From a virus (Duplodnaviria; Heunggongvirae; Uroviricota; Caudoviricetes), in IMG/VR virus record IMGVR_UViG_3300040801_001810, positions 1 through 64,000 of that record: a stretch of 64,000 bases of DNA. One strand, 5' to 3'. This document shows positions 3,820 through 18,481 of the stretch, one piece after another. Under the pieces are notes generated by a model. The model searched no databases. It was not told the origin of the DNA and saw nothing but the letters and a program-made list of their open reading frames with translations. The translations under genes and the position numbers were made by a program. The stretch's first letter is position 1. Each line of letters opens with the position of its first letter.

Positions 3820-3829
3820 TTATCAATAA

Positions 3830-3989: not shown

Positions 3990-4001
3990 ATGGAGAAAAT
4001 A

Positions 4002-6160: not shown

Positions 6161-6497
6161 GCCAACCTTATATGTAAAAGTAGGAAGACGTTATGTTCCT
6201 TGGGGTATATATGATAATGGTATTCCAATACATCAAGGGTTATATATAGTAAAACATAGAAAAAATCATTCATCTATGGAACGGATAGAATTACGAGATG
6301 AAGAAGATCTAATTCCAGAAGATATAATTGATCGTTATGCATTAGAAGAGAAAATATTAGAAATAGTATTAGCACTAGATAAAGAGAAATCGTTTACTTG
6401 GAAAGAAGTAGCAAGAAACATAGCATATAAACTAATACCTGCTGGTAAAAAGAAAAAGAAACAAATAAAATTAAAAATAAGGAACCTCAATGGATAA
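6153..6497 (+). CDS. hypothetical protein
   Basis: ORF overlapping the ligase stop; translationally coupled layout. Confidence 0.55.
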   Translation: MNKPTLYVKVGRRYVPWGIYDNGIPIHQGLYIVKHRKNHSSMERIELRDEEDLIPEDIIDRYALEEKILEIVLALDKEKSFTWKEVARNIAYKLIPAGKKKKKQIKLKIRNLNG

Positions 6498-7144
6498 GAT
6501 TAAATTAGCTACAATTACAAGAGTAACTGAAGATAAAGAATATAAAGAAGTTAGAATGGAAGATCTTAAAAAAAATGATCTATTCATTATGGAAAATGAT
6601 AGTGGAGAATTAACTTCTGTTGATAAAGATGGTCAATTTATTTTAAAAGCCGTTGCTGATGCAGAGATTCCTATATATAAAAATGTAAACTCAATAAAGT
6701 GTGGATATTATGCCTAAAAAATATGAATATGTAGAGCTAGATTTTACAAATGAAGAATTAGTAGAATTAGCTACTTTAGCCCATGAGGAAGATATTACTT
6801 TAAATCAGTTATGTAATAAACTACTAATGAGAGGACTTGGTTCACTTATGAAAAAGAAATATAAAGTTGCTCTTTTATATGAAGCACAACGACTTCAACA
6901 AGTTAATAAATTAGAAGATTTAGGATTAAATCTTTTTGATGATAACTGTTGGGGAGACTATGTTATATTTTATATTGTTCTTGATAAGTTAGGAATCCCA
7001 AAAGACAAAAATTACCCACGAGATGATTATAATAATGTATATTATAATATATGGTCAGAACCAAATAAGATAACTATGGATACCATAGATGAACTAATCA
7101 ATGATTGTATTGAAATTCATATGAATGGAATTGAAGAGGAATAA

Positions 7145-7552
7145 ATGTCACATTATAACAAAATTAAGACACAAATTAAAAATAGAAACAATCTAGTAAA
7201 AGCTCTGTGTAAGATGGGATTTACAGAAGACCAGATTCGTGTATGCGATACAGCAGAACATCTAGAAGGATACGAAGGAAGAAAACGTCCTGAAACAGCT
7301 AATGTTATTATTCCTCGTAAATATGTTGGTGGAGCAGCTAATGATATTGGTTGGAAGCTAGGTGAAGATGGGACCTATGAAGCTATCATATCAGATTATG
7401 ATAAACGTAAGTATAATACTGCTTGGTGTGGTAAGATGGAAACCCATTATGGAATTGAACAGTCAAAAGAGGCTTTTACCATGAATGGTTGGAGTTATTC
7501 AGAACAAGTAACCGAAGAAGGCGAAGTTCAGCTGATTGGAGTAATGTACTAA
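7145..7552 (+). CDS. DUF1257 (Ycf35-like) protein, copy 1
   Basis: MSHYNKIKTQIKN..LVKAL..MGF, DIGW, YEAIISDYD. Confidence 0.8.
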   Translation: MSHYNKIKTQIKNRNNLVKALCKMGFTEDQIRVCDTAEHLEGYEGRKRPETANVIIPRKYVGGAANDIGWKLGEDGTYEAIISDYDKRKYNTAWCGKMETHYGIEQSKEAFTMNGWSYSEQVTEEGEVQLIGVMY

Positions 7553-7752
7553 TGAAAAAGATAACACTTACCTTTAAATGGGACGGAAAGACAGTTGAAA
7601 AAGATGTAGAAGGTTTTGAAGGCGGGGGATGTATTACAGCTACTGACTTTATTAACAAAGCACTTGGTTCAACTGAAGAAGAACAAATGAAGCCATCATA
7701 TTATCTTCCAAATCCAGAAGGATTAGACGTTCAAGCAAAAGTGTATAACTAA
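7552..7752 (+). CDS. DUF2997 protein, copy 1
   Basis: DGK..VEGFEGGGCITAT....ALG....KPSYY; coupled to DUF1257 by TAATG. Confidence 0.78.
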   Translation: MKKITLTFKWDGKTVEKDVEGFEGGGCITATDFINKALGSTEEEQMKPSYYLPNPEGLDVQAKVYN

Positions 7753-7753
7753 G

Positions 7754-8365
7754 ATGAAACGTAATGACAAGTTTTATAGAGAAAAAAAATTAAGGAAAGA
7801 TATTAAAGAGTACGACGAACTTTCTAATAAGAAAAGAAAACCTGAAAAAAGATTTTTAGGGTGGAAGAGAAGAAAGAAAGTTAATAGTGCTGGTAAAAAA
7901 CTTGCAGTTGGCCAAGATCTAGAATTACTTGTTAATACAATTGGAGTTTGGCAAATAAGCGATATTAAAGGAAATTGGCGCTGTCAAGATGAATGGTTTA
8001 AACCAATTTCTCATGAACAGTATAAACAGCTTCCAGCTAATATCCAGTATTTATTAGAATGTGACAGAGAAAAAGAGTATTCTCTTTTACTTTCTAATGA
8101 TAAATCGACCGCAAAATGGTTCATAGCCAGAAGGTATGAAAAGTATCTCTATATAAAAGTTAAAAGAAATATTAGAAAAACTAGATATAGAGGGTGGACA
8201 CTTCAATATGAACCAGATGAAATAAAACTTAGAGATAAACTTTTGGCACAAGCAGCTTGGGTTAAAATTTTCGGTGATTATAATAGTTATTGGGACGAAG
8301 AATATCATAAACGCAAGAAAAAGATATTAGAAAAAGAAATAAATAGAGAATTAGACTTGGAATAA
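7754..8365 (+). CDS. hypothetical basic protein
   Basis: 203-aa ORF, Lys/Arg-rich. Confidence 0.55.
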   Translation: MKRNDKFYREKKLRKDIKEYDELSNKKRKPEKRFLGWKRRKKVNSAGKKLAVGQDLELLVNTIGVWQISDIKGNWRCQDEWFKPISHEQYKQLPANIQYLLECDREKEYSLLLSNDKSTAKWFIARRYEKYLYIKVKRNIRKTRYRGWTLQYEPDEIKLRDKLLAQAAWVKIFGDYNSYWDEEYHKRKKKILEKEINRELDLE

Positions 8366-8367
8366 TC

Positions 8368-8781
8368 ATGACTACATTTAAGATATTAAAAGAACCAGTT
8401 AAACCTGTTAAACGATCAGCTATTAAACGCACTACGTTATATGATGATTTTTATATTAAGGATGTCATTAAGACAATTACTGACAATGACGGAGATATTA
8501 ATACTGCATTTGTATCATGTAGTAAAGATTACGACGATGACATTGAAATAGAATTGACATATCGTCATGGATCAGAAGAAGAATATAATCAACAAATGGC
8601 TGAATATAAATTAAAGCTTGCTGATTATAGAAAATGGAAAAAAGAAAATAAATATCAGATCCAAGAAGAATTAAGAAGAAGAAAATATCTACGAGAGAAG
8701 AGAAAAATAGAAAAATTAGAACGAGAAAAACAGAAATTAATAGAAAAATTAAAGAAGTTAGATAATAAACTTGACTTTTAA
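8368..8781 (+). CDS. hypothetical protein with C-terminal coiled coil
   Basis: 137-aa ORF. Confidence 0.55.
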   Translation: MTTFKILKEPVKPVKRSAIKRTTLYDDFYIKDVIKTITDNDGDINTAFVSCSKDYDDDIEIELTYRHGSEEEYNQQMAEYKLKLADYRKWKKENKYQIQEELRRRKYLREKRKIEKLEREKQKLIEKLKKLDNKLDF

Positions 8782-8799
8782 CTGACATTGACGTATATT
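8771..8799 (+). promoter_or_regulatory. sigma70-type promoter
   Basis: TTGACT-N17-TATATT upstream of tRNA-Asn. Confidence 0.8.
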
Positions 8800-8826
8800 A
8801 TAATTAGTCCTGCCTATTTAATTTAC

Positions 8827-8915
8827 TGGCAGATCGCTCAATCGGCAGAGCACCAGGCTGTTAACCTGACGTGGCGTAAGCCCACCTGGGGGTTCAAGTC
8901 CCTCTCTGCCAGCCA
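8827..8915 (+). tRNA. tRNA-Asn(GTT) with long variable arm
   Basis: TGGCAGA/TCTGCCA, G73, CAGG-CTGTTAA-CCTG, ~18-nt variable region, GTTCAAG, CCA. Confidence 0.88.
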
Positions 8916-8938
8916 ATTATTTTAGAAAGTAAACAACT

Positions 8939-9055
8939 ATGACAGCATTCAAATTATTAATGAGTAAGTGTACAATTCAACACAACTCGAGTATATTTGA
9001 TGGTAATTCTTTTAACGCCGCATCAGGCCATGGAGAAGATAATATCCAAATTTAA
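8939..9055 (+). CDS. putative attenuator leader peptide (38 aa)
   Basis: MTAFKLLMSKCTIQHNSSIFDGNSFNAASGHGEDNIQI*; stop abuts the antiterminator arm; RBS weak (AGAAAG). Confidence 0.6.
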   Translation: MTAFKLLMSKCTIQHNSSIFDGNSFNAASGHGEDNIQI

Positions 9056-9114
9056 CTGTCGAGTTTTACTATATACAAGAAAAGCCCCTCGACAGCAAAT
9101 CGAGAGGCTTTTTT
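9056..9114 (+). promoter_or_regulatory. attenuator: overlapping antiterminator and terminator
   Basis: CTGTCGAG(9056-9063)/CTCGACAG(9088-9095) is mutually exclusive with AAAAGCCCCTCGA/TCGAGAGGCTTTT+T run. Confidence 0.75.
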
Positions 9115-9128
9115 AGTATTAGGACTAA

Positions 9129-9139
9129 GTTCTTTGAAA
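9129..9139 (+). promoter_or_regulatory. boxA-like antitermination site
   Basis: GTTCTTTGAAA between the terminator and the first downstream tRNA. Confidence 0.6.
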
Positions 9140-9162
9140 TTCTAGATAACAAGTACATATTT

Positions 9163-9239
9163 GGGCTGTTAACTCAGTTGGTCAGAGTAGCACACTCATA
9201 ATGTGATCGTCGGGGGTTCAAGTCCCTCACAGCCCACCA
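9163..9239 (+). tRNA. tRNA-Ile2(CAT), probable lysidine-type
   Basis: GGGCTGT/ACAGCCC acceptor resembling the Ile(GAT) acceptor, CTCATAA loop, CCA. Confidence 0.8.
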
Positions 9240-9248
9240 AACTTTAAT

Positions 9249-9321
9249 GGGGTCGTAGCTCAGTTGGGAGAGCGCTTGGCTTGCACCCAGGAGGTCAGGA
9301 GTTCAAACCTCCTCGGCTCCA
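9249..9321 (+). tRNA. tRNA-Ala(TGC)
   Basis: GGGGTCG/CGGCTCC with G3:U70, CTTGCAC loop. Confidence 0.93.
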
Positions 9322-9338
9322 CTATATATAGAGGAATT

Positions 9339-9806
9339 ATGGAAGAAGAAACAAAACCTTTTAGTGAAAAATTAAAAAATAAATATGATCTTCCAGCTAA
9401 ATTAGTTGCTGAAGATTTTATGAATGAAATTGGTTTTGACACTAAAGGTATATTAAATGAACAAAAAGAACAATTTGAAAAATATGATACAGAATATGAT
9501 TTTCTTGGAACTACAGTAACTGCTGAAGCAGAATATAAAGAAGGTTGGACTGATCGTGGACATTGGCAATATAATTTTCCAACTATAGATGTATCATATA
9601 GAAAAAGATATAGTGAAGCACATGTATTTGTAATGTGTAATTTCCATAAAGACACAATAGCAGTAGCTTGGATGAAAGATGTAATTACGTCTGATACTTA
9701 TTGTAAAAAAACAAAACATACAACTTGGGAACGATTTTTTAAATGTAATCCAAAGATATTTACTATATATCTCAAGAAAAATGGAAGATGGAAGAAAATA
9801 AATTAA
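9339..9806 (+). CDS. putative PD-(D/E)XK endonuclease
   Basis: KYD...AEAEYKEGW; start corrected to ATG 9339 after GAGG (track ORF overlaps the tRNA). Confidence 0.55.
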   Translation: MEEETKPFSEKLKNKYDLPAKLVAEDFMNEIGFDTKGILNEQKEQFEKYDTEYDFLGTTVTAEAEYKEGWTDRGHWQYNFPTIDVSYRKRYSEAHVFVMCNFHKDTIAVAWMKDVITSDTYCKKTKHTTWERFFKCNPKIFTIYLKKNGRWKKIN

Positions 9807-9807
9807 T

Positions 9808-9881
9808 GCCGTCGTAGCTGAGGGGTTTAGCGCAGGATTGAAGCTCCTGAGACGTCGGATCGACCCCGACCGTCGGCACCA
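9808..9881 (+). tRNA. tRNA-Phe(GAA)
   Basis: CAGGA-TTGAAGC-TCCTG, CCA; T:T mismatch in acceptor and A54 T-loop. Confidence 0.85.
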
Positions 9882-9885
9882 ATAT

Positions 9886-9957
9886 GGGGCGTTCGTCTAG
9901 TGGTTAGGACAGCTGGTTTTCAGCCAACTAACAGGAGTTCGATTCTCCTACGCCCTA
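9886..9957 (+). tRNA. tRNA-Glu(TTC)
   Basis: GGGGCGT/ACGCCCT, TTTTCAG loop, GTTCGA. Confidence 0.9.
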
Positions 9958-9979
9958 TTTAACATTATATGGGGATAGT

Positions 9980-10618
9980 ATGTGGGGTAAAAGAAATGTT
10001 GTTGTACTAAATAAATATGGTGAATATTGGTCTGAAGTTACAGTACGAAGAGCTATTAATAAGATATTAAATCTTAGAGCAACTATAGTAGCAGAAGATA
10101 AATCACATTTTTTAGGTACAATAGTACGAGAAGATGGTCCATCTATTAAATACATTCCTCTATATCGACCGTTTGTAATTCAATTAAAATACTTTGATTA
10201 TTATAAGTATACAAGCGATATTGTTCCATATAGTGATAGACAAGTATTTATTCGAGACAAAAACATTTGTCAATATTGGCATGACTATACATTAAAATTA
10301 GTTGATGGTAAATTAGTCAAAGAAGAAGCAGAACGACACAAGTATAATGTATCTCTATCAGAAAGAACGATAGATCACGTAATACCTGTATCAAAAGGCG
10401 GAAGAAAAGCAGACTATGAAAATGTAGTTTGTTGTTGCAGATATTGCAATGAAGTTATTAAACGAGACATGACTCCCAAAGAAGCAGGGTTAGTTTTAAT
10501 CAAAAAACCCTGTGCTCCTCATAGAGTAAAAGGAGACATAGCAAGAAATATGTTTATGTATGATCCTGACAAAGATTCACATAAAGCATATATAATATGG
10601 AAAAAAGAATCATTTTAA
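9980..10618 (+). CDS. HNH endonuclease (McrA-like)
   Basis: VVVLN, IRDKNICQY, TIDHVIPVSKGG, NVVCCCRYCN. Confidence 0.88.
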   Translation: MWGKRNVVVLNKYGEYWSEVTVRRAINKILNLRATIVAEDKSHFLGTIVREDGPSIKYIPLYRPFVIQLKYFDYYKYTSDIVPYSDRQVFIRDKNICQYWHDYTLKLVDGKLVKEEAERHKYNVSLSERTIDHVIPVSKGGRKADYENVVCCCRYCNEVIKRDMTPKEAGLVLIKKPCAPHRVKGDIARNMFMYDPDKDSHKAYIIWKKESF

Positions 10619-10696
10619 GCATCGTTAGTGAAGTTGGTCAATCACGTCGGACTGTCAATCCGAAGAACACGGGTTCAAATCCCGTACGATGCGCCA
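10619..10696 (+). tRNA. tRNA-Asp(GTC)
   Basis: GCATCGT/ACGATGC, TCGGA-CTGTCAA-TCCGA, G73, CCA. Confidence 0.92.
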
Positions 10697-10951
10697 TTTT
10701 AAGGAGATAGAATGTCATTTTCAGAAGAACAACTTGAACAATTAGATGATATGTTAGAGCAAACAGTTGTTGCAGCAGAAAAAGCAATTGAGAAAGTAGT
10801 TAATGGTAATTTTCCAAAACATATTGCGCAATTCGATAAAAATCTATACGACGAGTATGTTAAACAAGGATTTGATGAAAATTTTGCATGTATGCTTGTT
10901 CAACGATTTGATACAGCTGGTTTTTTAGGACAGAAAAGAACTTAATTTTAC

Positions 10952-11037
10952 GGAGAGTTAGGATAATTGGTAATCCAGCACATTGCTAATGTGCCGCCCT
11001 TCGGGGCTTACAGGTTCAAGTCCTGTACTCTCCGCCA
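10952..11037 (+). tRNA. tRNA-Ser(GCT)
   Basis: GGAGAGT/ACTCTCC, GCACA-TTGCTAA-TGTGC, long arm, CCA. Confidence 0.93.
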
Positions 11038-11048
11038 TAAGGATTACA

Positions 11049-11381
11049 ATGAAAGACAAATTCAAATTAATAGTTTCATTGGTAGCTATAATCACTATAA
11101 TTGTAATAGGAGTAGGTTTTAGTCAACAAACTCCTCCAAGATTACCAACAGTAATGGCTGAATGTTCTGGAGAAGACGTAGAAGTAACTTTTAACATACC
11201 ATTAGCTGGAGCATTAAAAGTATTAGGATTTAGTGTAGAAAATTCAATTATTAAAGATACAGGAACAGCTGTAATTTATATACCAACAATAGATGTATAT
11301 TATGTTACTAAGCGAGACCAAGAATCAAGAAGATATGATGGAGAAATTTTTTCTTATATTAAATCGGAGTGTTTAAAATGA
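11049..11381 (+). CDS. membrane-anchored hypothetical protein
   Basis: MKDKFKLIVSLVAIITIIVIGVGF signal/anchor; start corrected. Confidence 0.55.
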   Translation: MKDKFKLIVSLVAIITIIVIGVGFSQQTPPRLPTVMAECSGEDVEVTFNIPLAGALKVLGFSVENSIIKDTGTAVIYIPTIDVYYVTKRDQESRRYDGEIFSYIKSECLK

Positions 11382-11638
11382 GTACAGTAGCAATGTTTAC
11401 TTTAACATATGACCAGCTAGAGAACGATTGCAAAATAGCAATGGATGCTACTTTAGAAGCATTAGTAGTTGAAAAAATTCTAGATGAAAAAGTAGCAACA
11501 AATTGGATGAAAGAGCATTCTATTATAATTAGAAAACGTAGTTTCTTTGATAGACTATTTAAACCAGAAAAAGGCAAAAAAGAAGATAGACATTTTACGA
11601 TTGTTAAAAAAGTAGTACCAGAAGAATATTAAAATTAT

Positions 11639-11765
11639 ACGAGGGTAGCTCAGTCGGCGGAGCGACGGTCGAAGACCGTGTCAATGGCCGTTACAGCGTA
11701 CGGGTAACATCTCAGAGACGTTTGAGGTTTGGTCTGCGGAAGTTCAATTCTTCCCCCTCGTGCCA
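11639..11765 (+). ncRNA. 127-nt tRNA-like RNA with non-canonical anticodon arm and large insert
   Basis: ACGAGGG/CCCTCGT acceptor + GCCA, D arm GCTC/GAGC, T arm GGAAG-TTCAATT-CTTCC; middle has ACGGT-CGAAG-ACCGT plus a ~58-nt structured insert. Confidence 0.8.
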
Positions 11766-11771
11766 ATTTAA

Positions 11772-11847
11772 GCGATAGTACATCAATTGGTAGATGGCCA
11801 CGTTGCCAACGTGGAGGTTGCGAGTTCGAGTCTCGCCTATCGCACCA
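11772..11847 (+). tRNA. tRNA-Gly(GCC)
   Basis: GCGATAG/CTATCGC, CCACG-TTGCCAA-CGTGG, A73, CCA. Confidence 0.93.
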
Positions 11848-12658
11848 GGGGCATATATGAAGTATTGTACAATATGTAAGAAATTAAGTAATACTCGGAT
11901 TAAAATCAGTAAATGGTTTTATAATAAATGTATTACTTATGAAAGAGAAGTATGCGCTGGCTGCCAAAGTGAATTATTAATCGATCATATTCCAAAAGAC
12001 ACATCTAAGATTAAAATCCCATGGCAAGAAAAAAGAAGAGCAAAACGATATGAACAAAGAATGTATACAATAAATGAAAGAATGAGTAACGGATGGCCAA
12101 GCTTAGGATAGCAATAATAACTTTATTTATTTTATTTTATAATTGTGTTGGAACAGTTACAGTTTCAGAACTTAGCTTTCTAGAACCATTATATAAAGTA
12201 AAAGAAAATAAGATTATTTCAATAGATACAGTTTATACAAATTATGAAAAACTTTACAAAGTTAAATATAGGAGATAAGTATGCATGAGAAAAAAGGCGA
12301 GCTGGTAATCTGCGGATTCGTTAAGCAATGCAAAATTAAGAAATGTGTACATAAAGAACCACATCAATATTCAGATGCATGTAAGGGTATGTGTAAACAT
12401 ATGGGATATGCAGAATGTAGAGAAATTAGAAAATGAACAAAGTATATCTATCAAGAAAAAATCTAAAGGCACTTCTATCAAAATTAGATAGGAGAGCAAA
12501 AGGCGAAACTACAATGTGTACTATTATCAAAAATGATACAGTACATCCAGTATATCCTCAGACAATGCCTAAAATTGCAGTAATAGCTGTAGAAGATAAG
12601 GAATACTATATAGATAGACCTGCTGGAGAAGTTTATCCATCAGATTGTTAATAATTAA

Positions 12659-12734
12659 GCGGGTGTGACGCAATTGATAGCGTGTCTGATTTCCAATCAG
12701 AATGTTGCAGGTTTGAGTCCTGTCACCCGCACCA
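12659..12734 (+). tRNA. tRNA-Gly(TCC)
   Basis: GCGGGTG/CACCCGC, TCTGA-TTTCCAA-TCAGA, A73, CCA. Confidence 0.9.
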
Positions 12735-12747
12735 TTTAAGGAGAAGT

Positions 12748-13071
12748 ATGCAAGATTCATATACAATATTTAATACAATTAAGAGAACGGGTTATGCATA
12801 CTCTCATTTAGGAAAAGATGATAGAGAATTCAGACCAAAACAAGCATTAAGTAGAAATACATTAGAAGAAGAAGTAATAGATAAAATTAATGCTGTTCAA
12901 AAAATAACAAGAATATTAGCTAATACAACAGAAACACAAAAAATAATTATTTATTATTTAGCTGATGATTTAACTAATGATGAAATAGCAAAAAAAATGA
13001 AAATAAGTCGTAGAATACTTGATAATAATATAAGAACAATAAGAAAAAAAGCTAAAAGATTAAAGAATTAG
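12748..13071 (+). CDS. HTH protein (LuxR / sigma region 4-like)
   Basis: LTNDEIAKKMKISRRILDNNIRTIRKK; start after AAGGAG. Confidence 0.65.
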   Translation: MQDSYTIFNTIKRTGYAYSHLGKDDREFRPKQALSRNTLEEEVIDKINAVQKITRILANTTETQKIIIYYLADDLTNDEIAKKMKISRRILDNNIRTIRKKAKRLKN

Positions 13072-13079
13072 AGGATACC

Positions 13080-13505
13080 ATGACTCAGTTAGAAAAAGCT
13101 ATTACAATCGCTACAATGGCTCATGCAGGGCAACAAGATAAAGAGGGGCAACCTTACATCTTACATCCTTTGCGTGTCATGATGAGTCTCCAAGGAGACG
13201 TATTAAGAACTATAGCTGTTCTTCATGATGTAGTTGAAGATACTATTTTAACTCTTGATGATCTAAAAGATGATTTTGAAGACGTAGTTGTAGAAGCGGT
13301 AGAAGCTATGACTCACCCTAAAAGCGAATCATATGATGATTACCTACAACGAGTATTAGATAATGTACTAGCTAGAACTGTTAAACTGGCTGATTTACGA
13401 GATAATATCAGTCCAGTAAGATTATACAAATTGGATCCAGATACAATAGTAAGATTAACTAAGAAATATACTAAAGCTATTAAATTACTAGAAGGTTGGA
13501 AATGA
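13080..13505 (+). CDS. HD-domain hydrolase, small alarmone hydrolase (SpoT/Mesh1-like)
   Basis: AHAGQQDKEGQPYILHPLRV, LHDVVEDT, VKLADLRDN. Confidence 0.88.
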   Translation: MTQLEKAITIATMAHAGQQDKEGQPYILHPLRVMMSLQGDVLRTIAVLHDVVEDTILTLDDLKDDFEDVVVEAVEAMTHPKSESYDDYLQRVLDNVLARTVKLADLRDNISPVRLYKLDPDTIVRLTKKYTKAIKLLEGWK

Positions 13506-13860
13506 AGGAAGAATACGGATTTTTTGTAGAATATGGAGATGGCTTCTATTCTCAAAGTTATGAAAAGTTGAGTGATGCACGAAATGATGCAAAATCGCAT
13601 TCTACGAAAAAATTGAGAATTTTCCATGGTAAGCTAAAACGTCAAAATGACAATATAATTGATGATAGACAATTATCGCTTGTTCCAAGGTTAGGCGGAT
13701 ATGAGAAAACTAACTCTAAATGAGAAAATCACTTTTAAAGGTATATTAGCCAGATGGCATGTTCCTGATTATATTCTAATAAAACTAGATATGGAACATT
13801 TGATGTTTTGTTGGTATAGACTTACTGGAACAAGTTTAATAAAGTATGGAAAATTTATTG

Positions 13861-13953
13861 GGAGGGTTTGACCCCAGTAGGGCGGGGCCTGGTCTTGAAA
13901 ACCAGTAGGCGGTGAAAGCTGCCATGGGAGTTCGAGTCTCTCACCCTCCACCA
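13861..13953 (+). tRNA. tRNA-Ser(TGA)
   Basis: GGAGGGT/ACCCTCC, CTGGT-CTTGAAA-ACCAG, long arm GGCGG..CTGCC, A73, CCA. Confidence 0.88.
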
Positions 13954-14114
13954 TTTAAGGAGTAAGAAATGAGCACAGAAACAAAGAAATATTTAATTAA
14001 CGCAATGTTACTAATGCTTCTAGGAGCAGTATCTTTCATAGGCGGAATAGTATATCATAATTCTACTATTATTGAAGAGAAAGAAATTCCAATATTAGGT
14101 ATTGGTGCTTAAAT

Positions 14115-14351
14115 ATGGCTACAGTAAAAGAACACATAATTAATAACCAAAAGGTATATTTTGATTTTTACCGAAATGGTATTTTATATTATAAAACAGA
14201 AAAAGGCTTATTATTCGAAGTTCCAACTTCAGAAGCTGGGGATGCTTGTTTTAATAAAGAGGATAAAGCTATATTTTTTATGAGATATATTCGCAAGCAA
14301 TTAGCAGCTAATAAACAAGGTATGGAAGAATCACATATTCCCGCTTTGTAA
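14115..14351 (+). CDS. conserved-looking hypothetical phage protein
   Basis: FDFYRNGILYYKT..G..FEVP..EAG.A.F...DKAIFFMRYIRK. Confidence 0.6.
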   Translation: MATVKEHIINNQKVYFDFYRNGILYYKTEKGLLFEVPTSEAGDACFNKEDKAIFFMRYIRKQLAANKQGMEESHIPAL

Positions 14352-14397
14352 AGCCTACGCACGGGGAAATCGTAAAAATTTTGGTGAAGATTTGAGA
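14350..14397. repeat. dispersed 48-bp intergenic repeat, copy A
   Basis: 41/48 identical (manual ungapped alignment) to 28629-28676. Confidence 0.8.
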
Positions 14398-14429
14398 ATT
14401 TGAACTTTTTTTAGAAAATTGGGATTAAA

Positions 14430-14792
14430 ATGCGAGTTTTTATTTTAGAAGATACAGAAGAAAGAATTAAAAAATTTAAACAAAATCTAATTGGTCATGA
14501 AATTATTGTAACTAAAGATACAAAAGAAGCAATAACTATCTTAGATGCAAATGAACCATTTGATTATATATGTTTAGATCATGATATGGGAGTTACCTTT
14601 GAACAACCAGGAGAAGGTACAGGATTTGAAGTTGCGGAATGGATAGCTAAACATCCAGAAAAGAAACCTAGAAAACTACTTATACATAGCATGAATAATG
14701 TTGGAGCTGCTGCTATGATGAGAGTATTAGGAGACGTAGGTATGAGAGCAACTTATATTCCTTTTCTATGGGACAAAATTCGAGCAAATTAA
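14430..14792 (+). CDS. cyclic-phosphate-processing receiver-domain protein
   Basis: ILED, CLDHDMG, GTGFEVAEWI, IHSMNNVGA. Confidence 0.78.
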   Translation: MRVFILEDTEERIKKFKQNLIGHEIIVTKDTKEAITILDANEPFDYICLDHDMGVTFEQPGEGTGFEVAEWIAKHPEKKPRKLLIHSMNNVGAAAMMRVLGDVGMRATYIPFLWDKIRAN

Positions 14793-14795
14793 CAT

Positions 14796-14872
14796 GGTGG
14801 CAGTAGCTCAGTTGGTAGAGCAGTAGATTGTGGTTCTACGGGTCAGGAGTTCAAACCTCCTCTGTCACACCA
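14796..14872 (+). tRNA. tRNA-His(GTG)
   Basis: G-1 + GTGGCAG/CTGTCAC, GTAGA-TTGTGGT-TCTAC, A73, CCA. Confidence 0.92.
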
Positions 14873-15285
14873 CCTAATTTGGATTACTATGAAACCAGTA
14901 TTAGTTAGAACTAGTAGTGTATACTTTGCTGAGAAACATAAAGATATACTCAAAGAAGAACTAGCTATAAATGAGCTGGTTAGTAAACTTAAATATATTC
15001 AGCAATCTAAAGTTCAGCAGCTCGCTAACGTAATCGGTCAGCTTAGAGACAAGAGGCACAGGTTGAGAAAAGTGAGACTTAGATAATGGAAGAATTCGAT
15101 AAACTATATAAAGATTGGTTCTTAGATGGAAATCTAACCATTAATGATAAACATTATGGTCAAGTTATGTGGAATTACAAAGAAATGTTAAAGCATTTAA
15201 CTGGAACTGAAAATATATGCGAAGTAGATATAGAAGAAGAACCAATACCTCAAAAGGTATCTAAATTAAATATACGGAGAGACTA

Positions 15286-16428
15286 ATGAGAAAACTAGCA
15301 TCAATTAGAACAGTAGGAGATATAAGACCTATTCCAGATGCTGATGCTATAGAAGTAGCAATAGTAGATGGTTGGGAATGTGTTGTTAAGAAAAATGAAT
15401 TTAGTATTGGTGATAAATGCGTATACATTGAAATTGATAGTATTGTACCACCAAAACCCGAATTTGAATTCTTAGAAAAACGCAGATATAGAGTAAGAAC
15501 TATTAAATTACGTAAACAAGTATCTCAAGGACTAGCATTACCTTTAAGTGCTGTTGGTATTAAAGATAATTATCCTGTAGGAAAAGATGTTACTGAGGAA
15601 CTAGGTGTAGTTAAATATGATCCTCAAGCTCAAAAAGAAAAGAACATGCGTGAAGCTGAGCTTCAAAAGAAAAGCAAGATGTTTAAGTGGCTAATGAGAT
15701 TCGGTTGGTTTAGAAAGCTACAAAAAGGTAAGCGTAAGAATTGGCCTTATTGGATAGCTAAAACTGATGAAGAACGAATTCAAAACATGCCTTCTGTCTT
15801 ACGATATCATGCAGATACTATTTGTTATGCTACAGAGAAAGTAGATGGTAGTAGCGCTAGCTATTCTCTTAAACTTATTGGTAAGTTTCTTTGGTTTAAG
15901 GATATTATTTTTACTGTATGTAGTCGTAATATGTGGCTACAACGTAAGAGACAGAAGTTTACTACGCAAAGCTATAGCTTTGATAGTAATAACTATTGGA
16001 ATATAGCTAAGAAATATGATCTTGAACGTAAGCTACGAGCTATGGGTAAAGAATTAGTTATTCAAGGCGAACTATTGGCAGATGGAGTTCAAAAGAATAA
16101 GTACTTAGTTAAGCCAGGAGATGTTAAGTTTAGAGTATATAATATCTATGATGTTAAAGAAGACACTTGGCTTGGTCTGAATGGTATCAGAACATATTGT
16201 AAAGCACTTGATCTTACTATGGTTCCTATTGTATGGACTGGTAGACTTAAAGAACTTGGAACTACTGTAGCAGAAGTAGTTGAAAAAGCTAAGGGTAAAT
16301 CTGAACTAAATCCTAAGGTTCACAGAGAAGGTATTGTAATTAGACAACTCTTATCTGAAAAAGGTAAGAGAGGTATGAGTTTTAAAGCTATTAACCCTGA
16401 CTTCCTACTTAAATATGAATCAGAATGA
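15286..16428 (+). CDS. RNA ligase, DRB0094/Rnl5 family
   Basis: MRKLASI..PIPDADAIE..VDGWECVVKK, KTDEERIQN, TEKVDGSS, CSRN, QGEL, REGIV, SFKAINPDFLLK. Confidence 0.92.
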   Translation: MRKLASIRTVGDIRPIPDADAIEVAIVDGWECVVKKNEFSIGDKCVYIEIDSIVPPKPEFEFLEKRRYRVRTIKLRKQVSQGLALPLSAVGIKDNYPVGKDVTEELGVVKYDPQAQKEKNMREAELQKKSKMFKWLMRFGWFRKLQKGKRKNWPYWIAKTDEERIQNMPSVLRYHADTICYATEKVDGSSASYSLKLIGKFLWFKDIIFTVCSRNMWLQRKRQKFTTQSYSFDSNNYWNIAKKYDLERKLRAMGKELVIQGELLADGVQKNKYLVKPGDVKFRVYNIYDVKEDTWLGLNGIRTYCKALDLTMVPIVWTGRLKELGTTVAEVVEKAKGKSELNPKVHREGIVIRQLLSEKGKRGMSFKAINPDFLLKYESE

Positions 16429-16685
16429 TATACCTAATCCATACAAAGTAATACAAGCTAGAGATACAACTCACGGATACTGTAAAAAGTGCTGTGGGTT
16501 TTATGCTATGTTTGATAATCTATGTGCCGATTGTTATCTAGAAGAGAATGTTCAAAAATATTTAGACAGTCTTAAAGAAAGAAGTCTAATGATTAGAGCA
16601 AATGGACTATCAAAAAAGAAAAAAGAAAATATTAATAAGAGATTAACCAAAGGGTGGGTTAAGTTTAATCTAAGAACATTCACCA

Positions 16686-16714
16686 TTGACTAATCTTAAA
16701 CAAAATATTATATT
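16686..16714 (+). promoter_or_regulatory. sigma70-type promoter
   Basis: TTGACT-N17-TATATT. Confidence 0.8.
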
Positions 16715-16720
16715 TATAGT

Positions 16721-16823
16721 GAACTTTACAACAGTTCGCTTGCCCGTGTAGGGACGCTAAAATAGTTGTGTTATCCTCCCACATAGCAGAGAAGTAGTAG
16801 AAATATTACTTCTCTGCTTTTTT
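16721..16823 (+). ncRNA. candidate ~100-nt sRNA
   Basis: bounded by its own promoter and a strong terminator; no ATG-started ORF; several hairpins and a CCTCC loop. Confidence 0.6.
16785..16823 (+). terminator. intrinsic terminator
   Basis: AGCAGAGAAGTAGTA-GAAA-TATTACTTCTCTGCT followed by a T run. Confidence 0.9.
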
Positions 16824-16867
16824 AATTTAGGTACCATATTTGGTACTGTTAGTACCGCATCTTGCGA

Positions 16868-16896
16868 TTGATTTTACACCTTAAATACACTATATT
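16868..16896 (+). promoter_or_regulatory. sigma70-type promoter (probable leaderless mRNA)
   Basis: TTGATT-N17-TATATT ending 6 nt before ATG 16903; no SD. Confidence 0.6.
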
Positions 16897-16902
16897 ATTA
16901 TT

Positions 16903-17319
16903 ATGATTGAAGTACACATTAGAGATAAAAATAAGTTAATTGGAATGATTTATCCTGGAAAAACTTTTTTAAGAGGAAGAACAGGACATAGTGCATTCTT
17001 TTATAATCCAATTGAATATCTACAGGCTGCGCTTGGCTTATGTATTGGAGGAAAGATAGTAGACTACTGTAGATTCAATGACTTAGACCCCAAGATATTC
17101 CAGAGTATAATAGTTAATACTAAAGATGACGTTCATACTATTACTATTCAACACCCAGAATCTCTAGAAGAAGAACATTTTGATAGACTTAAAAGGGAGT
17201 TAGTTAATTGTACTATAGCGAAACAATTAACTACTCCAATAGAAATAGCATGGACTCTTAATGATATTCCATTAGAAGAACTTATTAAAGAAGAAAAAGG
17301 TGGATGTTGTGGCTCTTAA
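16903..17319 (+). CDS. OsmC/Ohr-like protein
   Basis: NPIEYLQAALGLCIG and second Cys NCTIAKQL. Confidence 0.65.
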   Translation: MIEVHIRDKNKLIGMIYPGKTFLRGRTGHSAFFYNPIEYLQAALGLCIGGKIVDYCRFNDLDPKIFQSIIVNTKDDVHTITIQHPESLEEEHFDRLKRELVNCTIAKQLTTPIEIAWTLNDIPLEELIKEEKGGCCGS

Positions 17320-17623
17320 TTTAAGACGAGGCGTTATTCAAGAACGCATAAAAGAACATAAGTTAGAAGTTGCTGCTAAAGTTGAGGACTTAACTGATTT
17401 TAATAATCTTAAAGTATGTATTACAGGAACAATTCCTGGTCGTACTAGAACTCAAGCCCAGAATCAATTAAAGAAACAATATCCATTTGTTACTTTTTCT
17501 AATTCAATTACTAAATCAGTTAATATTTTAGTTACAGGGTTTGGTACAGGTCAAACAAAATTTACTATGGCTAATAGATATGGTATTAAAATCGTTGACT
17601 GGAGTAAGGTATGGACAAAGTAA
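17300..17623 (+). CDS. BRCT-domain protein
   Basis: VCITGT...R..A....SITKSVNILVTG..GQTK...A...GIKIV. Confidence 0.8.
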   Translation: MDVVALNLRRGVIQERIKEHKLEVAAKVEDLTDFNNLKVCITGTIPGRTRTQAQNQLKKQYPFVTFSNSITKSVNILVTGFGTGQTKFTMANRYGIKIVDWSKVWTK

Positions 17624-17839
17624 TTAAGGGACCTTGGCCTGAAGAAAATCATTTACAACAACATCAAAAAATGTTTGACAACCTAGTTACTTTATTATCA
17701 GACTGTGAAGATGTGGTTAAAGATAATCTTCCTAAAGATCCAAATAATAATACTGATTGGTCTGGCATATCAGTAGCATATATTTTACAATATGCTATGA
17801 TTAATACTCAGAAACTTACTCATACACACGAGGTACAAG

Positions 17840-18481
17840 ATGTCACAAGTATGGACACCAAAGAAGTTCCTATTTGACTTAGACGAAACACTATATGTTG
17901 GCGATTTAATATTTATTGCATCCTGTATGTTGACGAGAGAAAAATTAATTGATAGAATATATACAGGAAAAGATGTTACAAAATTTCCTGACATGGATGG
18001 TGTTCCTGATATAGTTAGAGAAAAAACTATTGAATTATTTTCTGATCCAATATACGGAGCAGTAGAAAAGACACCAATAGCTGGTGCGTTTAATATGCTT
18101 GAAGTATTATCTATGCGTAATAATCACATAGGTGTATTAACTGCTCGCCCACAATGTATTAGAAAAGCTACTGAGTTTGCATTATGGAGAGATTTTCCTC
18201 ATATTAATATAGAAATCTTGTTTGCAAATACAAGTAATACAGGATGCAAAAGTGTATCTAAAACAAAATTGCTTAAACAATTTAATCCTGATTATTATTT
18301 TGATGATCACTTTGAATATTGTAAAGAGGCAAAGAAGACATGTCCTAATTGTAATGTATTTATGATTTCAAATTCACATACAAGATGGAACCAGGAGATT
18401 TCTTCACTTTCATTAGATACTATTAAAAAAATAAAAAGTATAAATGACTTTGATATGAGAGGGTTTTTATATGGGGTATAA
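17840..18481 (+). CDS. HAD-family phosphatase / nucleotidase
   Basis: FDLDETL, LTAR, K, YFDDH. Confidence 0.8.
   Translation: MSQVWTPKKFLFDLDETLYVGDLIFIASCMLTREKLIDRIYTGKDVTKFPDMDGVPDIVREKTIELFSDPIYGAVEKTPIAGAFNMLEVLSMRNNHIGVLTARPQCIRKATEFALWRDFPHINIEILFANTSNTGCKSVSKTKLLKQFNPDYYFDDHFEYCKEAKKTCPNCNVFMISNSHTRWNQEISSLSLDTIKKIKSINDFDMRGFLYGV

What the first reader, a model, noticed from the sequence alone, without database searches (positions are those of the whole stretch)
8771..16693. Leader-peptide attenuator gating a phage tRNA / RNA-repair / alarmone-hydrolase unit
Seen: promoter (8771) > tRNA-Asn > 38-codon ORF (8939-9055) whose stop directly abuts CTGTCGAG. That arm can pair with CTCGACAG inside a terminator hairpin (9080-9114). 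A boxA-like GTTCTTTGAAA follows, then ten tRNAs (Ile2, Ala, Phe, Glu, Asp, Ser-GCT, Gly-GCC, Gly-TCC, Ser-TGA, His), an HD/SpoT-like hydrolase, a cyclic-phosphate receiver domain and an Rnl5 ligase; I saw no terminator before 16785. Leader codons 17-34 (TCG AGT ATA TTT GAT GGT AAT TCT TTT AAC GCC GCA TCA GGC CAT GGA GAA GAT) use only amino acids of tRNAs in this transcript and contain a cognate codon for each of the ten downstream tRNAs; Lys and Leu are absent there despite the AT-rich genome. Established: trp/his-type attenuation and rrn boxA antitermination. Inference: a ribosome reaching the leader stop masks the antiterminator (OFF), while stalling on depleted or cleaved host tRNAs allows read-through (ON). 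That would be a multi-codon sensor deploying replacement tRNAs and repair enzymes when host defence attacks translation.
Basis: partly seen in the sequence, partly recalled or inferred. Interest (0 to 1): 0.92.

Follow-up and report, generated by a model that had tools for sequence, protein, structure and literature searches.

The report
Codon-matched attenuators gating phage tRNA operons
A 230-kb uncultured phage places a tiny translated "checklist" gene and a switchable transcription stop in front of each of two tRNA/RNA-repair operons; each checklist is written in the codons read by the tRNAs behind it, so the phage probably transcribes each set only when those codons are decoded slowly, a use of classical attenuation that I could not find published for tRNA genes.

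Summary
Codons 15-35 of the 38-codon ORF (8939-9055) use only codons or amino acids served by tRNA-Asn and the ten downstream tRNAs, and they cover all eleven. This is the longest such run in all six frames of the 230-kb genome.

A second unit of the same design lies outside the window at genome 214.4 kb: promoter, tRNA-Thr, a 21-codon ORF, a terminator and a boxA-like motif. Its run TYTCKWYRVVKR matches exactly the seven tRNAs of that operon.

Eight distinct units were collected (two here, six in metagenomic relatives). All have:
- a Shine-Dalgarno sequence and an ORF;
- three alternative helices (start region:stop region, stop region:terminator 5' arm, terminator);
- some compensatory changes between units;
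- a conserved amino-acid composition with a varying residue order.

Three relatives leave no room for a promoter after the terminator. The matched run ends where a ribosome would start to cover the antiterminator arm.

The link to host defence remains speculative. This scan has already noted the same design in at least 85 other genomes. I found no paper describing it.

The parts
8771..8799 (+). sigma-70-type promoter of operon 1 (TTGACT-17-TATATT)
   Evidence: It is one of about 12 sites of the family TTGACT-N17-TATATTATA in the genome, and none lies inside the operon.
8827..8915 (+). tRNA-Asn(GTT), 89 nt with a long variable arm, transcribed ahead of the leader
   Evidence: The variable-arm hairpin shows a compensatory change in relative L030.
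8928..8946 (+). region 1: weak Shine-Dalgarno sequence (AGAAAG, 8924-8929) and start codon; pairs with region 2
   Evidence: MFE fold. Duplex energy -12.8 to -13.1 kcal/mol.
8939..9055 (+). leader ORF, 38 codons + TAA (MTAFKLLMSKCTIQHNSSIFDGNSFNAASGHGEDNIQI)
   Evidence: It is invariant in the 97%-identical relative L030, while the flanks carry 19 changes.
8981..9043 (+). regulatory run: 21 codons served only by tRNA-Asn and the ten downstream tRNAs, covering all eleven
   Evidence: Longest such run in six frames of the 230-kb genome.
9055..9071 (+). region 2 (core CTGTCGAG, 9056-9063): pairs either with region 1 or with the terminator 5' arm
   Evidence: 0 of 1000 shuffles reach both helices. 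It is covered by a ribosome whose A site is at codon 36 or later.
9080..9114 (+). intrinsic terminator (regions 3 and 4); CTCGACAG at 9088-9095 is the partner of region 2
   Evidence: hairpin -17 kcal/mol, followed by a U tract.
9129..9140 (+). boxA-like motif GTTCTTTGAAAT
   Evidence: 2 of the 3 + strand copies in the genome sit directly after the two attenuators; it matches the rrn leader/spacer motif TGTTCTTTGAAAAC of Bacilli and Mollicutes.
9163..9322 (+). tRNA(CAT), probably Ile2, and tRNA-Ala(TGC)
9808..9958 (+). tRNA-Phe(GAA) and tRNA-Glu(TTC)
10619..11037 (+). tRNA-Asp(GTC), a 77-aa ORF and tRNA-Ser(GCT)
11772..11847 (+). tRNA-Gly(GCC)
12659..12734 (+). tRNA-Gly(TCC)
13080..13505 (+). 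small HD_4 (RelA/SpoT-type) hydrolase
   Evidence: Pfam HD_4, phrog_990, and PDB 7smg (p)ppApp hydrolase at E 1e-27.
13861..13953 (+). tRNA-Ser(TGA)
14430..14792 (+). cREC_REC (cyclic-phosphate processing receiver) domain protein
   Evidence: Pfam PF20274, E 4e-16.
14797..14872 (+). tRNA-His(GTG), the last tRNA of the operon
15286..16428 (+). Rnl5-type RNA ligase (N-terminal OB domain + nucleotidyltransferase)
   Evidence: Pfam PF21189 + PF09414; Naegleria RNA ligase 5cot at E 3e-38.
16785..16824 (+). next strong intrinsic terminator, the likely end of operon 1

Best explanation
These are ribosome-mediated (leader-peptide) transcription attenuators that control tRNA operons.

Proposed sequence of events:
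1. A strong host-type promoter transcribes one tRNA (Asn here; Thr in the second unit at genome 214.4 kb) and then a short ORF preceded by a Shine-Dalgarno sequence.
2. The sequence at and just after the ORF's stop codon (region 2) can pair with the 5' arm of an intrinsic terminator 22-35 nt downstream. This is the antiterminator.
3. If the pioneer ribosome decodes the ORF quickly, it is sitting on the last codons or the stop when the terminator emerges. It covers region 2, the terminator forms, and transcription ends.
4. If the ribosome is held up anywhere in the run of codons read by the operon's own tRNAs, region 2 is free and pairs with the terminator arm. RNA polymerase then reads on into the tRNA genes and the RNA-repair and tRNA-maturation genes between them.

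The circuit is therefore a negative feedback on decoding capacity for a defined set of codons: 11 tRNAs in operon 1 and 7 in operon 2.

A third helix joins the SD/start codon to region 2. It probably closes the leader to further ribosomes after the decision, or acts as an anti-antiterminator when nothing is translated.

The boxA-like motif behind the terminator probably recruits host Nus factors, so that polymerases that read through stay processive across the long, largely untranslated array.

What is shown: the anatomy, the statistics of the codon match, conservation and some compensatory changes, and the footprint geometry. What is inferred: translation of the ORF, the direction of the switch, and boxA function.
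For: 1. Codon match. The unit 1 run of 21 codons covers all 11 tRNAs and is the longest in the genome. The unit 2 run TYTCKWYRVVKR covers exactly Thr, Tyr, Cys, Lys, Trp, Arg and Val. These are the seven tRNAs from tRNA-Thr to the next strong terminator; Gln and Pro, just upstream, are not included. It is the longest run for that set genome-wide.

2. Recurrence in relatives.
- Unit 2 has five further diverged versions in contigs found through RlaP at 51-67% identity. Their leaders are MFTLTHTCKWYRVVKRVYLLG, MFTSRYTCKWYRIVKRLNLLG, MMFTITTTTKRCKWYVVRYINT, MITTTYYKRCKWYVVRRITT and MRTPKYKYCWRTVKTT.
- Unit 1 has one diverged version in L158/L242. Its run NSSDSFSASSSAFAGHEGD covers all 10 tRNAs of that contig.
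- Composition is kept while residue order is not. In-set codon enrichment ranges from P 8e-4 to 2e-7 in the five leaders read in frame.
- L032 has an AGG codon together with a tRNA-Arg(CCT), and an AAG codon together with a tRNA-Lys(CTT).

3. Helices.
- All 8 units have helices 1:2, 2:3 and 3:4 with duplex energies of -12 to -20 kcal/mol. In each unit, 0 of 1000 shuffles of region 2 reach both alternative helices.
- Compensatory changes include GUUCAC/GUGAAC to GAUCAC/GUGAUC, GGGGU/ACCCC to GAGGUGA/UCACCUC, CUGUCGAG/CUCGACAG to GUCAGGAA/UUCCUGAC, and terminator GGCAACC/GGUUGCC to GGCUACC/GGUAGCC.
- RNAalifold recovers the start:stop helix and the terminator with 3 compensatory pairs.
- The 2:3 helix is 83% paired, against 33-64% in slid controls.

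4. Geometry. Before the terminator's 3' arm is transcribed, region 2 pairs with the terminator 5' arm for every ribosome position up to 3-5 codons before the stop. After that the pairing is lost. The matched run ends within 2 codons of this boundary in 7 of 8 units. With a ribosome at the stop, the terminator is the MFE structure in all 6 units folded this way.

5. No bypass. In L031, L032 and L156 the T tract is 13-15 nt from the next ATG. No member of the phage's strong promoter family lies inside either operon.

6. Conservation. There are no changes across 8882-9182 in a relative that has 19 changes in the flanking 350 nt.
Against: - There is no expression, ribosome-profiling or term-seq evidence. 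No RNA run holding the sequence was listed.
- The Shine-Dalgarno sequence of unit 1 is weak.
- The 21-codon run depends on two assumptions: that the CAT tRNA is Ile2, and that tRNA-Ala(UGC) reads GCC. GTC in unit 2 likewise needs four-way reading by tRNA-Val(UAC).
- The tRNA sets and the leaders do not co-vary perfectly. L028 lacks tRNA-Tyr but keeps two Tyr codons. L026 lacks tRNA-Val but keeps one Val codon. The L031 contig shows only Trp, Lys and Val.
- Covariation rests on few independent events (two clades per family).
- In equilibrium folds, the untranslated leader prefers the antiterminator before the 3' arm emerges. The behaviour without translation therefore depends on kinetics that I cannot compute.
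- In unit 1 and L032 the terminator remains the MFE of the full-length RNA even with a stalled ribosome. Read-through must then be kinetic, as in the trp leader.
- AT-rich DNA gives many weak promoter-like matches, so internal promoters cannot be excluded.
Confidence: 0.8

Rival explanations
1. The sensor and switch are the same, but their biological role is a damage response. Host anticodon nucleases or other tRNA-depleting defences stall the leader ribosome. That induces replacement tRNAs together with the repair set: RlaP, the CCA-adding enzyme, a phosphoesterase, the Rnl5 ligase, the cREC protein and the (p)ppApp-hydrolase-like HD enzyme. It refines the best explanation rather than excluding it.
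For: - Both operons interleave tRNAs with RNA-repair or tRNA-maturation genes.
- The matched sets include tRNAs that, from my own knowledge and not tested here, are classic nuclease targets: Lys, Tyr, His, Asn, Asp and Arg.
Against: - Nothing in the sequence distinguishes damage from simple demand.
- No defence or counter-defence context was examined.
- The sets also include tRNAs not known to me as nuclease targets.
- The repair genes may be co-transcribed only because they sit among the tRNAs.
Confidence: 0.3
2. The terminators are ordinary ends of short promoter-tRNA transcription units. On this view the small ORFs are untranslated spacer or parts of a stable small RNA, and the downstream genes are expressed from other promoters. 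Such promoters could be the TTGAAA/TTGACA-N16-18-CATATT matches that overlap the boxA-like motif.
For: - The start:stop helix and the terminator give a compact, stable fold (z = -4.5).
- Promoter-like matches lie after both terminators.
- From my own knowledge, T4 has stable RNAs of unknown function in its tRNA cluster.
Against: - It does not explain why the two ORFs carry the genome's longest runs of exactly the codons of the tRNAs behind them.
- It does not explain the conserved Shine-Dalgarno sequence and open frame across indels, or composition-only conservation of the peptides.
- The putative -10 element would place the transcription start inside tRNA(CAT) in unit 1 and beyond the ATG in L025 and L026.
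- L031, L032 and L156 have no room for any promoter.
Confidence: 0.07
3. The ORFs encode functional micropeptides, and the codon match is a by-product of peptide function. Alternatively, the leader acts through translation or stability of the downstream message rather than through termination.
For: - The close clade keeps the unit 2 peptide at 81-90% identity.
- The start:stop helix would also control translation of the leader itself.
Against: - Between clades the residue order is scrambled while the composition is kept.
- No homologues of the 38-aa peptide were found among 1.8 billion representative proteins, apart from one low-complexity hit.
- tRNA output cannot be controlled by translation.
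- An intrinsic terminator with a competing helix is present in all 8 units.
Confidence: 0.05

Closest known systems
Multivalent leader-peptide attenuators of enterobacterial amino-acid operons (thrL, ilvL/ivbL, hisL, trpL, pheL) and of pheST
   Same: - A short ORF with a Shine-Dalgarno sequence sits in the leader.
- A run of regulatory codons reports the supply of charged cognate tRNA.
- An intrinsic terminator competes with an antiterminator whose 5' strand lies at the end of the ORF.
- A third helix competes with the antiterminator.
- The energies resemble the trp leader, with the terminator more stable than the antiterminator, so the decision is kinetic.
   Different: - The regulated products are tRNA genes (with RNA-repair genes), not biosynthetic enzymes or a synthetase.
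- The checklist covers 7-11 different tRNAs (7-9 amino acids), not 1-3 amino acids.
- The protector helix involves the SD/start codon, not the regulatory codons.
- A tRNA gene usually lies between the promoter and the leader.
- The units are phage-encoded.
- No Rfam leader family matches.
rrn-type boxA (NusB/NusE-dependent) processive antitermination
   Same: A 12-nt motif (GTTCTTTGAAAT, or TGCTCTTTGACAT in unit 2) lies near the start of a long, largely untranslated RNA operon. It matches the motif found in rrn leaders and spacers of Bacilli and Mollicutes.
   Different: - It is placed after an attenuator rather than directly after the promoter.
- It is absent from three of the eight units, and it lies after tRNA-Ala in L158.
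- Binding of Nus factors is untested.
- The host is unknown.
T-box riboswitches
   Same: They adjust transcription read-through according to the state of a specific tRNA pool, by means of a terminator/antiterminator choice.
   Different: T-boxes bind uncharged tRNA directly, need no translation, read one tRNA, and control synthetase and amino-acid genes. No T-box match was found, and the units here have an ORF with a Shine-Dalgarno sequence instead of a specifier loop.
Codon-matched leader attenuators before phage tRNA clusters, noted earlier by this scan in other genomes (e1-5402871, e1-5408211, e1-5355741, e1-3411523 and others)
   Same: The design is the same: mini-ORF written in the codons of the downstream tRNAs, then a terminator, in large uncultured phages.
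   Different: - This is a different phage lineage; no sequence match to earlier windows was found.
- Here the operons also carry RNA-repair enzymes and a boxA-like element.
- The earlier notes are unchecked AI notes, not independent evidence.

Membership tests
Ribosome-mediated (leader-peptide) transcription attenuator | A short ORF with a ribosome-binding site lies in the transcribed leader upstream of the regulated genes | tested here: met
   The ORF is present in all 8 units. AGGA-type Shine-Dalgarno sequences lie 6-10 nt upstream in 7 of them; unit 1 has the weaker AGAAAG. The frame stays open across indels, and the stop always lies at the 5' edge of region 2.
Ribosome-mediated (leader-peptide) transcription attenuator | Regulatory codons are enriched and matched to what the operon supplies | tested here: met
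   The two ORFs hold the longest matched runs in the genome (21 codons covering 11 tRNAs; 12 codons covering 7 tRNAs). In-set enrichment is P 8e-4 to 2e-7 in the five leaders read in frame. The L158 run of 19 codons covers all 10 tRNAs of that contig.
Ribosome-mediated (leader-peptide) transcription attenuator | An intrinsic terminator lies between the leader ORF and the regulated genes | tested here: met
   Hairpins of -12 to -19 kcal/mol followed by a U tract start 22-35 nt after the stop.
Ribosome-mediated (leader-peptide) transcription attenuator | An antiterminator helix is mutually exclusive with the terminator, and its 5' strand can be covered by a ribosome at the end of the ORF | tested here: met
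   The 2:3 duplexes are -13 to -20 kcal/mol. In each unit, 0 of 1000 shuffles of region 2 reach both alternative helices. They are 83% paired on the alignment, with one G-C to A-U compensatory pair. The pairing is lost when the A site is within 3-5 codons of the stop.
Ribosome-mediated (leader-peptide) transcription attenuator | A protector (1:2) helix overlaps the regulatory codons | tested here: not met
   A 1:2 helix exists in all 8 units and shows compensatory changes. However, its 5' strand is the SD/start-codon region, not the regulatory codons.
Ribosome-mediated (leader-peptide) transcription attenuator | Read-through responds to the ribosome's position or to the supply of charged tRNA | not testable with these tools
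   Only geometry and thermodynamics are available. No RNA run holding the sequence was listed.
Ribosome-mediated (leader-peptide) transcription attenuator | The regulated genes are amino-acid biosynthesis or aminoacyl-tRNA synthetase genes (all described cases known to me) | tested here: not met
   The downstream genes are tRNAs, HNH endonucleases and RNA-repair or tRNA-maturation enzymes.
rrn-type boxA antitermination site | Sequence match to the boxA consensus | tested here: met
   GTTCTTTGAAAT compared with TGTTCTTTGAAAAC. I found the latter 80-110 nt upstream of 16S rRNA in 6 of 10 checked loci, and in the 16S-23S spacer in two (one locus has both), so 7 of the 10 hold it in an rrn operon: Bacillus, Neobacillus, Paenibacillus and Mycoplasmopsis. 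That this motif is the boxA of those operons rests on its position and on my memory of the literature. No paper was retrieved.
rrn-type boxA antitermination site | Non-random placement, conserved near the start of a long untranslated operon | tested here: met
   Two of the three + strand copies in the genome lie 2-14 nt after the attenuator T tracts, against 0.5 copies expected. The motif is kept in L025, L026, L028 and L158 and is absent in L031, L032 and L156.
rrn-type boxA antitermination site | Binds NusB/NusE and makes RNA polymerase resistant to termination | not testable with these tools
   No test was possible, and the host is unknown.
T-box riboswitch | Conserved T-box sequence and specifier loop; no need for translation | tested here: not met
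   Rfam reports no T-box or any leader family in 1-18000 at E <= 1.

The most novel reading that the evidence does not exclude
The two attenuators are the sensing arm of a phage tRNA-damage response. Cleavage or depletion of specific host tRNAs by defence nucleases would stall the checklist ribosome. That switches on, in one transcript, replacement tRNAs plus a complete repair kit (RlaP, CCA-adding enzyme, phosphoesterase, Rnl5 ligase, cREC protein, (p)ppApp-hydrolase-like enzyme). A boxA element would then lock the polymerase into a termination-resistant state. More broadly, codon-checklist attenuation would be the general way large phages meter their own tRNA supply.
Probability: 0.3. Interest if true: 0.92.

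Novelty: new variant of a known kind. Interest (0 to 1): 0.85.

Why it matters
How phages time and dose their own tRNAs is largely unknown, and tRNA genes are usually treated as constitutive passengers.

A leader-peptide attenuator whose codon checklist mirrors the tRNA set behind it would mean the phage measures decoding capacity directly and tops it up on demand. That extends a classical mechanism (trp/his/thr/ilv attenuation) to a new class of target: the tRNAs themselves, along with tRNA repair enzymes.

The finding gives a simple, testable readout, namely read-through at two defined terminators. It could be used to ask whether phage tRNAs serve codon-usage matching, replacement after host tRNA degradation, or escape from anticodon nucleases.

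The checklist also offers a computational way to predict which tRNAs form one regulatory unit in uncultured phages.

The design recurs here in two operons and in seven metagenomic relatives. According to this scan's earlier notes it also occurs in many other giant phages, so it is probably widespread.

Tried and rejected
Searches that found nothing useful:
- Close relatives in cultured phages: none. Only tRNA-level blastn hits were found; the RNA ligase reaches at most 37% identity and polB about 23%.
- IMG/VR searches with the two ORFs flanking the leader, with polB and with RlaP found nothing.
- The 155-aa ORF after tRNA-Ala has no homologue other than itself.
- A pattern from the tRNA-Asn variable arm found nothing.
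- The 38-aa leader peptide gave only one low-complexity hit among 1.8 billion representatives. It was too short for the search for related loci.
- PHROGs and Pfam give nothing for the leader.
- Rfam found only tRNAs, plus a sub-threshold terminator-like match to RefA9.

Expression:
- No RNA holder was listed.
- The two metatranscriptome runs of the likely source sample gave only tRNA-like contigs from other organisms on this stretch.
- Nothing can therefore be said about expression.

Records I could not search or that lacked the unit:
- The ENA and Logan records behind L025, L026 and L028 could not be searched as wholes.
- The other tRNA clusters of the genome (Leu/Leu/Met/Met/Ile and Gln/Pro/Pro) show no comparable leader.
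- The relatives L033, L034, L155 and L157 have no leader at the RlaP position.

Readings rejected:
- The post-terminator motif as a -35 element. The transcription start would fall inside tRNA(CAT) in unit 1, or after the ATG in L025 and L026.
- An opposite-sign model, in which translation causes read-through. The terminator stem starts 22-35 nt after the stop, beyond a terminating ribosome's footprint.

Other:
- Literature searches for boxA with the Bacillus-type sequence found nothing usable.

Full report
**Context**

The window is the first 64 kb of a 230,193-bp IMG/VR virus record with direct terminal repeats and 33.6% G+C. The record carries 27 tRNA genes covering all 20 amino acids, plus tmRNA-like genes. 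Most of them lie in one region that runs from 210 kb across the record's ends to 15 kb.

The phage has no close cultured relative: its polB is about 23% identical and its RNA ligase at most 37% identical to anything in the phage collection. Sequencing-run look-up points to a microbial mat as the likely source.

**Check of the observation**

- Promoter: TTGACT-17-TATATT at 8771. It belongs to a family of about 12 near-identical sites, TTGACT-N17-TATATTATA, and none lies inside the operon.
- tRNAs: tRNA-Asn at 8827-8915 and the ten downstream tRNAs.
- Leader: the 38-codon ORF at 8939-9055, whose TAA abuts CTGTCGAG. That arm is complementary to CTCGACAG inside the terminator at 9080-9114.
- Post-terminator motif: GTTCTTTGAAAT at 9129.
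- Proteins: Pfam confirms the HD_4, cREC_REC and RNA-ligase proteins. The closest solved relatives are a (p)ppApp hydrolase (7smg, E 1e-27) and the Naegleria Rnl5 ligase (5cot, E 3e-38).
- Operon end: the next strong + strand terminator is at 16785.

**Is the codon match more than chance?**

I defined the codons served by tRNA-Asn and the ten downstream tRNAs and listed all maximal runs of such codons in the six frames of the whole genome (460,382 codon positions; 37.8% of codons are in the set).

The leader holds a run of 21 codons (15-35, 8981-9043). It is the longest in the genome; the next are 17 and 14. It is the only run that covers all eleven tRNAs.

Two assumptions matter. If the CAT tRNA at 9163 is not Ile2, the run is 16 codons, the second longest in the genome. 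If tRNA-Ala(UGC) does not read GCC, it splits into 12 + 8. At the amino-acid level the result stands.

**A second unit predicted by the hypothesis**

The same statistic for the other large tRNA cluster pointed to genome position 214,549, just after tRNA-Thr. The sequence there has the same layout (L024 coordinate = genome minus 210,000):
- promoter TTGACA-17-TATATT;
- tRNA-Thr;
- a Shine-Dalgarno sequence (AAGGA);
- a 21-codon ORF, MFTLTYTCKWYRVVKRLYLLG;
- a terminator;
- the motif TGCTCTTTGACAT.

The run TYTCKWYRVVKR uses Thr, Tyr, Cys, Lys, Trp, Arg and Val. These are exactly tRNA-Thr and the six tRNAs that follow, up to the next strong terminator. Gln and Pro, which lie just upstream, are not included. 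It is the longest run for that set in the genome.

This operon also carries RlaP, a metallophosphoesterase, a CCA-adding enzyme and a cytidylyltransferase. The other tRNA clusters have no such leader.

**Relatives**

Through RlaP homologues and their contigs I found the unit 2 leader in one identical copy (L025) and five diverged versions. The percentages are RlaP identity to ours.

| Locus | RlaP identity | Leader peptide |
|---|---|---|
| L028 | 61% | MFTLTHTCKWYRVVKRVYLLG |
| L026 | 67% | MFTSRYTCKWYRIVKRLNLLG |
| L032 | 51% | MMFTITTTTKRCKWYVVRYINT |
| L031 | 52% | MITTTYYKRCKWYVVRRITT |
| L156 | 51% | MRTPKYKYCWRTVKTT |

Through the HD hydrolase I found a diverged unit 1 in L158 (identical in L242). 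Its leader is MTVDTLSKTENMRINKLNSSDSFSASSSAFAGHEGDIVYT, and the 19-codon run NSS...GD covers all ten tRNAs of that contig.

A 97%-identical relative (L030) has 19 changes in the flanks and none between 8882 and 9182.

Between clades the order of residues is scrambled, but the composition, the Shine-Dalgarno sequence, the open frame and the position of the stop are kept. In-set enrichment is P 8e-4 to 2e-7 in the five leaders read in frame.

L032, which has tRNA-Arg(CCT) and tRNA-Lys(CTT), has AGG and AAG codons in its leader.

The match is not perfect everywhere. L028 lacks tRNA-Tyr but keeps two Tyr codons. L026 lacks tRNA-Val but keeps one Val codon. The L031 contig shows only three of the tRNAs.

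**RNA structure**

In all eight units three helices compete:
- region 1 (SD/start codon) with region 2 (at and just after the stop);
- region 2 with the 5' arm of the terminator;
- the terminator itself.

Duplex energies are -12 to -20 kcal/mol. In each unit, none of 1000 shuffles of region 2 reaches both alternative helices.

Sequences differ between units while pairing is kept:
- GUUCAC/GUGAAC against GAUCAC/GUGAUC;
- GGGGU/ACCCC against GAGGUGA/UCACCUC;
- a 13-bp AGGUGAUCUUAUA/UAUAAGGUCACCU helix in L031;
- CUGUCGAG/CUCGACAG (unit 1) against GUCAGGAA/UUCCUGAC (L158);
- terminator GGCAACC/GGUUGCC against GGCUACC/GGUAGCC.

RNAalifold on six unit 2 leaders recovers the start:stop helix and the terminator with three compensatory pairs. 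The antiterminator is 83% paired on that alignment, against 33-64% in slid controls, with one G-C to A-U pair. The number of independent events is small.

**How it most likely works**

I folded each leader as it exists before the terminator's 3' arm is transcribed, with a ribosome footprint placed at every codon in turn.

Region 2 pairs with the terminator 5' arm (10-19 expected base pairs) for every A-site position up to 3-5 codons before the stop. After that the pairing collapses. The matched run ends within two codons of that boundary in seven of the eight units. In unit 1 the run ends at codon 35 and the pairing is lost from codon 36.

With a ribosome at the stop, the terminator is the minimum-energy structure in all six units folded this way. 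The terminator stem starts 22-35 nt after the stop, beyond the footprint, so a terminating ribosome cannot block it directly.

The arrangement therefore fits: fast decoding gives termination, and a stall at any checklist codon gives read-through.

In L031, L032 and L156 the T tract is 13-15 nt from the next start codon. There, downstream expression must pass through the terminator.

The start:stop helix sequesters the Shine-Dalgarno sequence. I take it as a device to close the leader after the decision, or as an anti-antiterminator when nothing is translated. Equilibrium folds do not settle which.

**The boxA-like motif**

G[CT]TCTTTGA[ACT]A occurs three times on the + strand of the genome (0.5 expected). 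Two of these sit directly behind the two attenuator terminators. The motif is kept in L025, L026 and L028, lies after tRNA-Ala in L158, and is absent in L031, L032 and L156.

As a -35 element it fails, because the transcription start would fall inside tRNA(CAT) in unit 1 or after the ATG in L025 and L026.

The 14-mer TGTTCTTTGAAAAC, recalled from memory as the Bacillus rrn boxA, was searched in species genomes. In seven of ten loci checked with Rfam it lies in an rrn operon: 80-110 nt upstream of 16S rRNA in six of them and in the 16S-23S spacer in two, one locus having both. These are Bacillus, Neobacillus, Paenibacillus and Mycoplasmopsis.

The motif is thus a good match to a Bacillota-type rrn boxA. 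Its function here and the host remain inferred.

**Comparison with what is known**

The mechanism class is classical ribosome-mediated attenuation, closest to the multivalent thr and ilv leaders. Four things differ:
- the target is tRNA genes and RNA-repair enzymes;
- the checklist is much wider (7-11 tRNAs);
- the protector helix uses the start region rather than the regulatory codons;
- the units sit in a phage genome.

No Rfam leader or T-box family matches. Four full-text searches found no paper describing leader-peptide control of tRNA genes.

This scan's own notes list the same design in at least 85 other genomes, with follow-ups reaching the same reading. Those are unchecked notes on other DNA. 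I did not test them, and no sequence similarity links them to this phage.

**Verdict**

The defence-response extension is plausible and untested.

I rate this a new variant of a known kind. Confidence in the attenuator reading is about 0.8.

Noticed in passing
window 8827-8915; L030:4778-4866; L158:657-731; L026:8738-8818; L028:1170-1253: tRNA-Asn(GTT) has a long (type II-like) variable arm ending in a GNRA loop. The 97% relative shows a compensatory G>T / C>A change in that arm, with the loop going from GTAA to GCAA, so the arm is maintained. The more distant relative L158 has an ordinary 75-nt tRNA-Asn. tRNA-Thr is likewise long (81-84 nt) in L026 and L028 but 77 nt here.
   Followed up: partly
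window 11639-11765: A 127-nt tRNA-like element with an intact acceptor stem and CCA, a 5-nt 'anticodon' loop and a large insert in the variable region lies inside operon 1. Neither ARAGORN nor Rfam calls it.
   Followed up: no
L158:990-1062: Between the attenuator terminator and tRNA-Ala, where this phage has tRNA(CAT), the relative carries an uncalled tRNA-like sequence. It has an intact acceptor stem, an odd T loop (TGTAAGT) and the anticodon-loop sequence ACTGAGA.
   Followed up: no
window 16686-16824: A promoter of the strong family (TTGACT-17-TATATT) lies inside the end of ORF 16415-16693. About 70 nt further on comes the strong terminator at 16785-16818. This is a candidate small RNA of about 100 nt at the end of operon 1.
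   Followed up: no
window 1102-1604; L032:3979-4793: Here a 5' fragment of tRNA-Leu (1102-1125) precedes an HNH-type ORF and the intact tRNA-Leu(TAA). In L032 a tRNA-Thr gene is split by about 740 nt that carry another tRNA-Thr and HNH genes. These look like homing-endonuclease footprints in tRNA genes.
   Followed up: no
L025:618-974; L026:8888-9532; L030:5217-5687: HNH endonuclease genes are inserted at different places right at the borders of the attenuator units in relatives: after the boxA-like motif (L025), between tRNA-Thr and the leader (L026), and between tRNA(CAT) and tRNA-Ala on the opposite strand (L030). The leader and terminator themselves stay intact.
   Followed up: partly
L011:11919-11990 (also L012-L016, L018): In an unrelated IMG/VR phage group, a 23-codon ORF (MNSRPNSSNYQIAQWGDYGVGVA) followed by a terminator lies about 1.5 kb upstream of a 12-tRNA cluster (Gly, Asn, His, Trp, Tyr, Arg, Glu, Gln, Ala, Pro, Ser, Ser). 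Eighteen of its 22 codons are in the set. This may be another unit of the same design.
   Followed up: no
genome 227355-228087 (L024:17355-18087); L028:7693-8067: ARAGORN calls tmRNA-like genes, with tag ...FYPLAKAA, at the end of the tRNA region in this phage and in a relative.
   Followed up: no
L158:4249-4324 and L242:8768-8843: The relative has tRNA-Gly with anticodon ACC where this phage has GCC. An A34 Gly tRNA is unusual in bacteria and phages.
   Followed up: no
window 12740-13071: A small protein with a weak sigma-70 region 4 / HTH match (ECF sigma, E 3e-4) is encoded inside operon 1, just upstream of the HD hydrolase.
   Followed up: no
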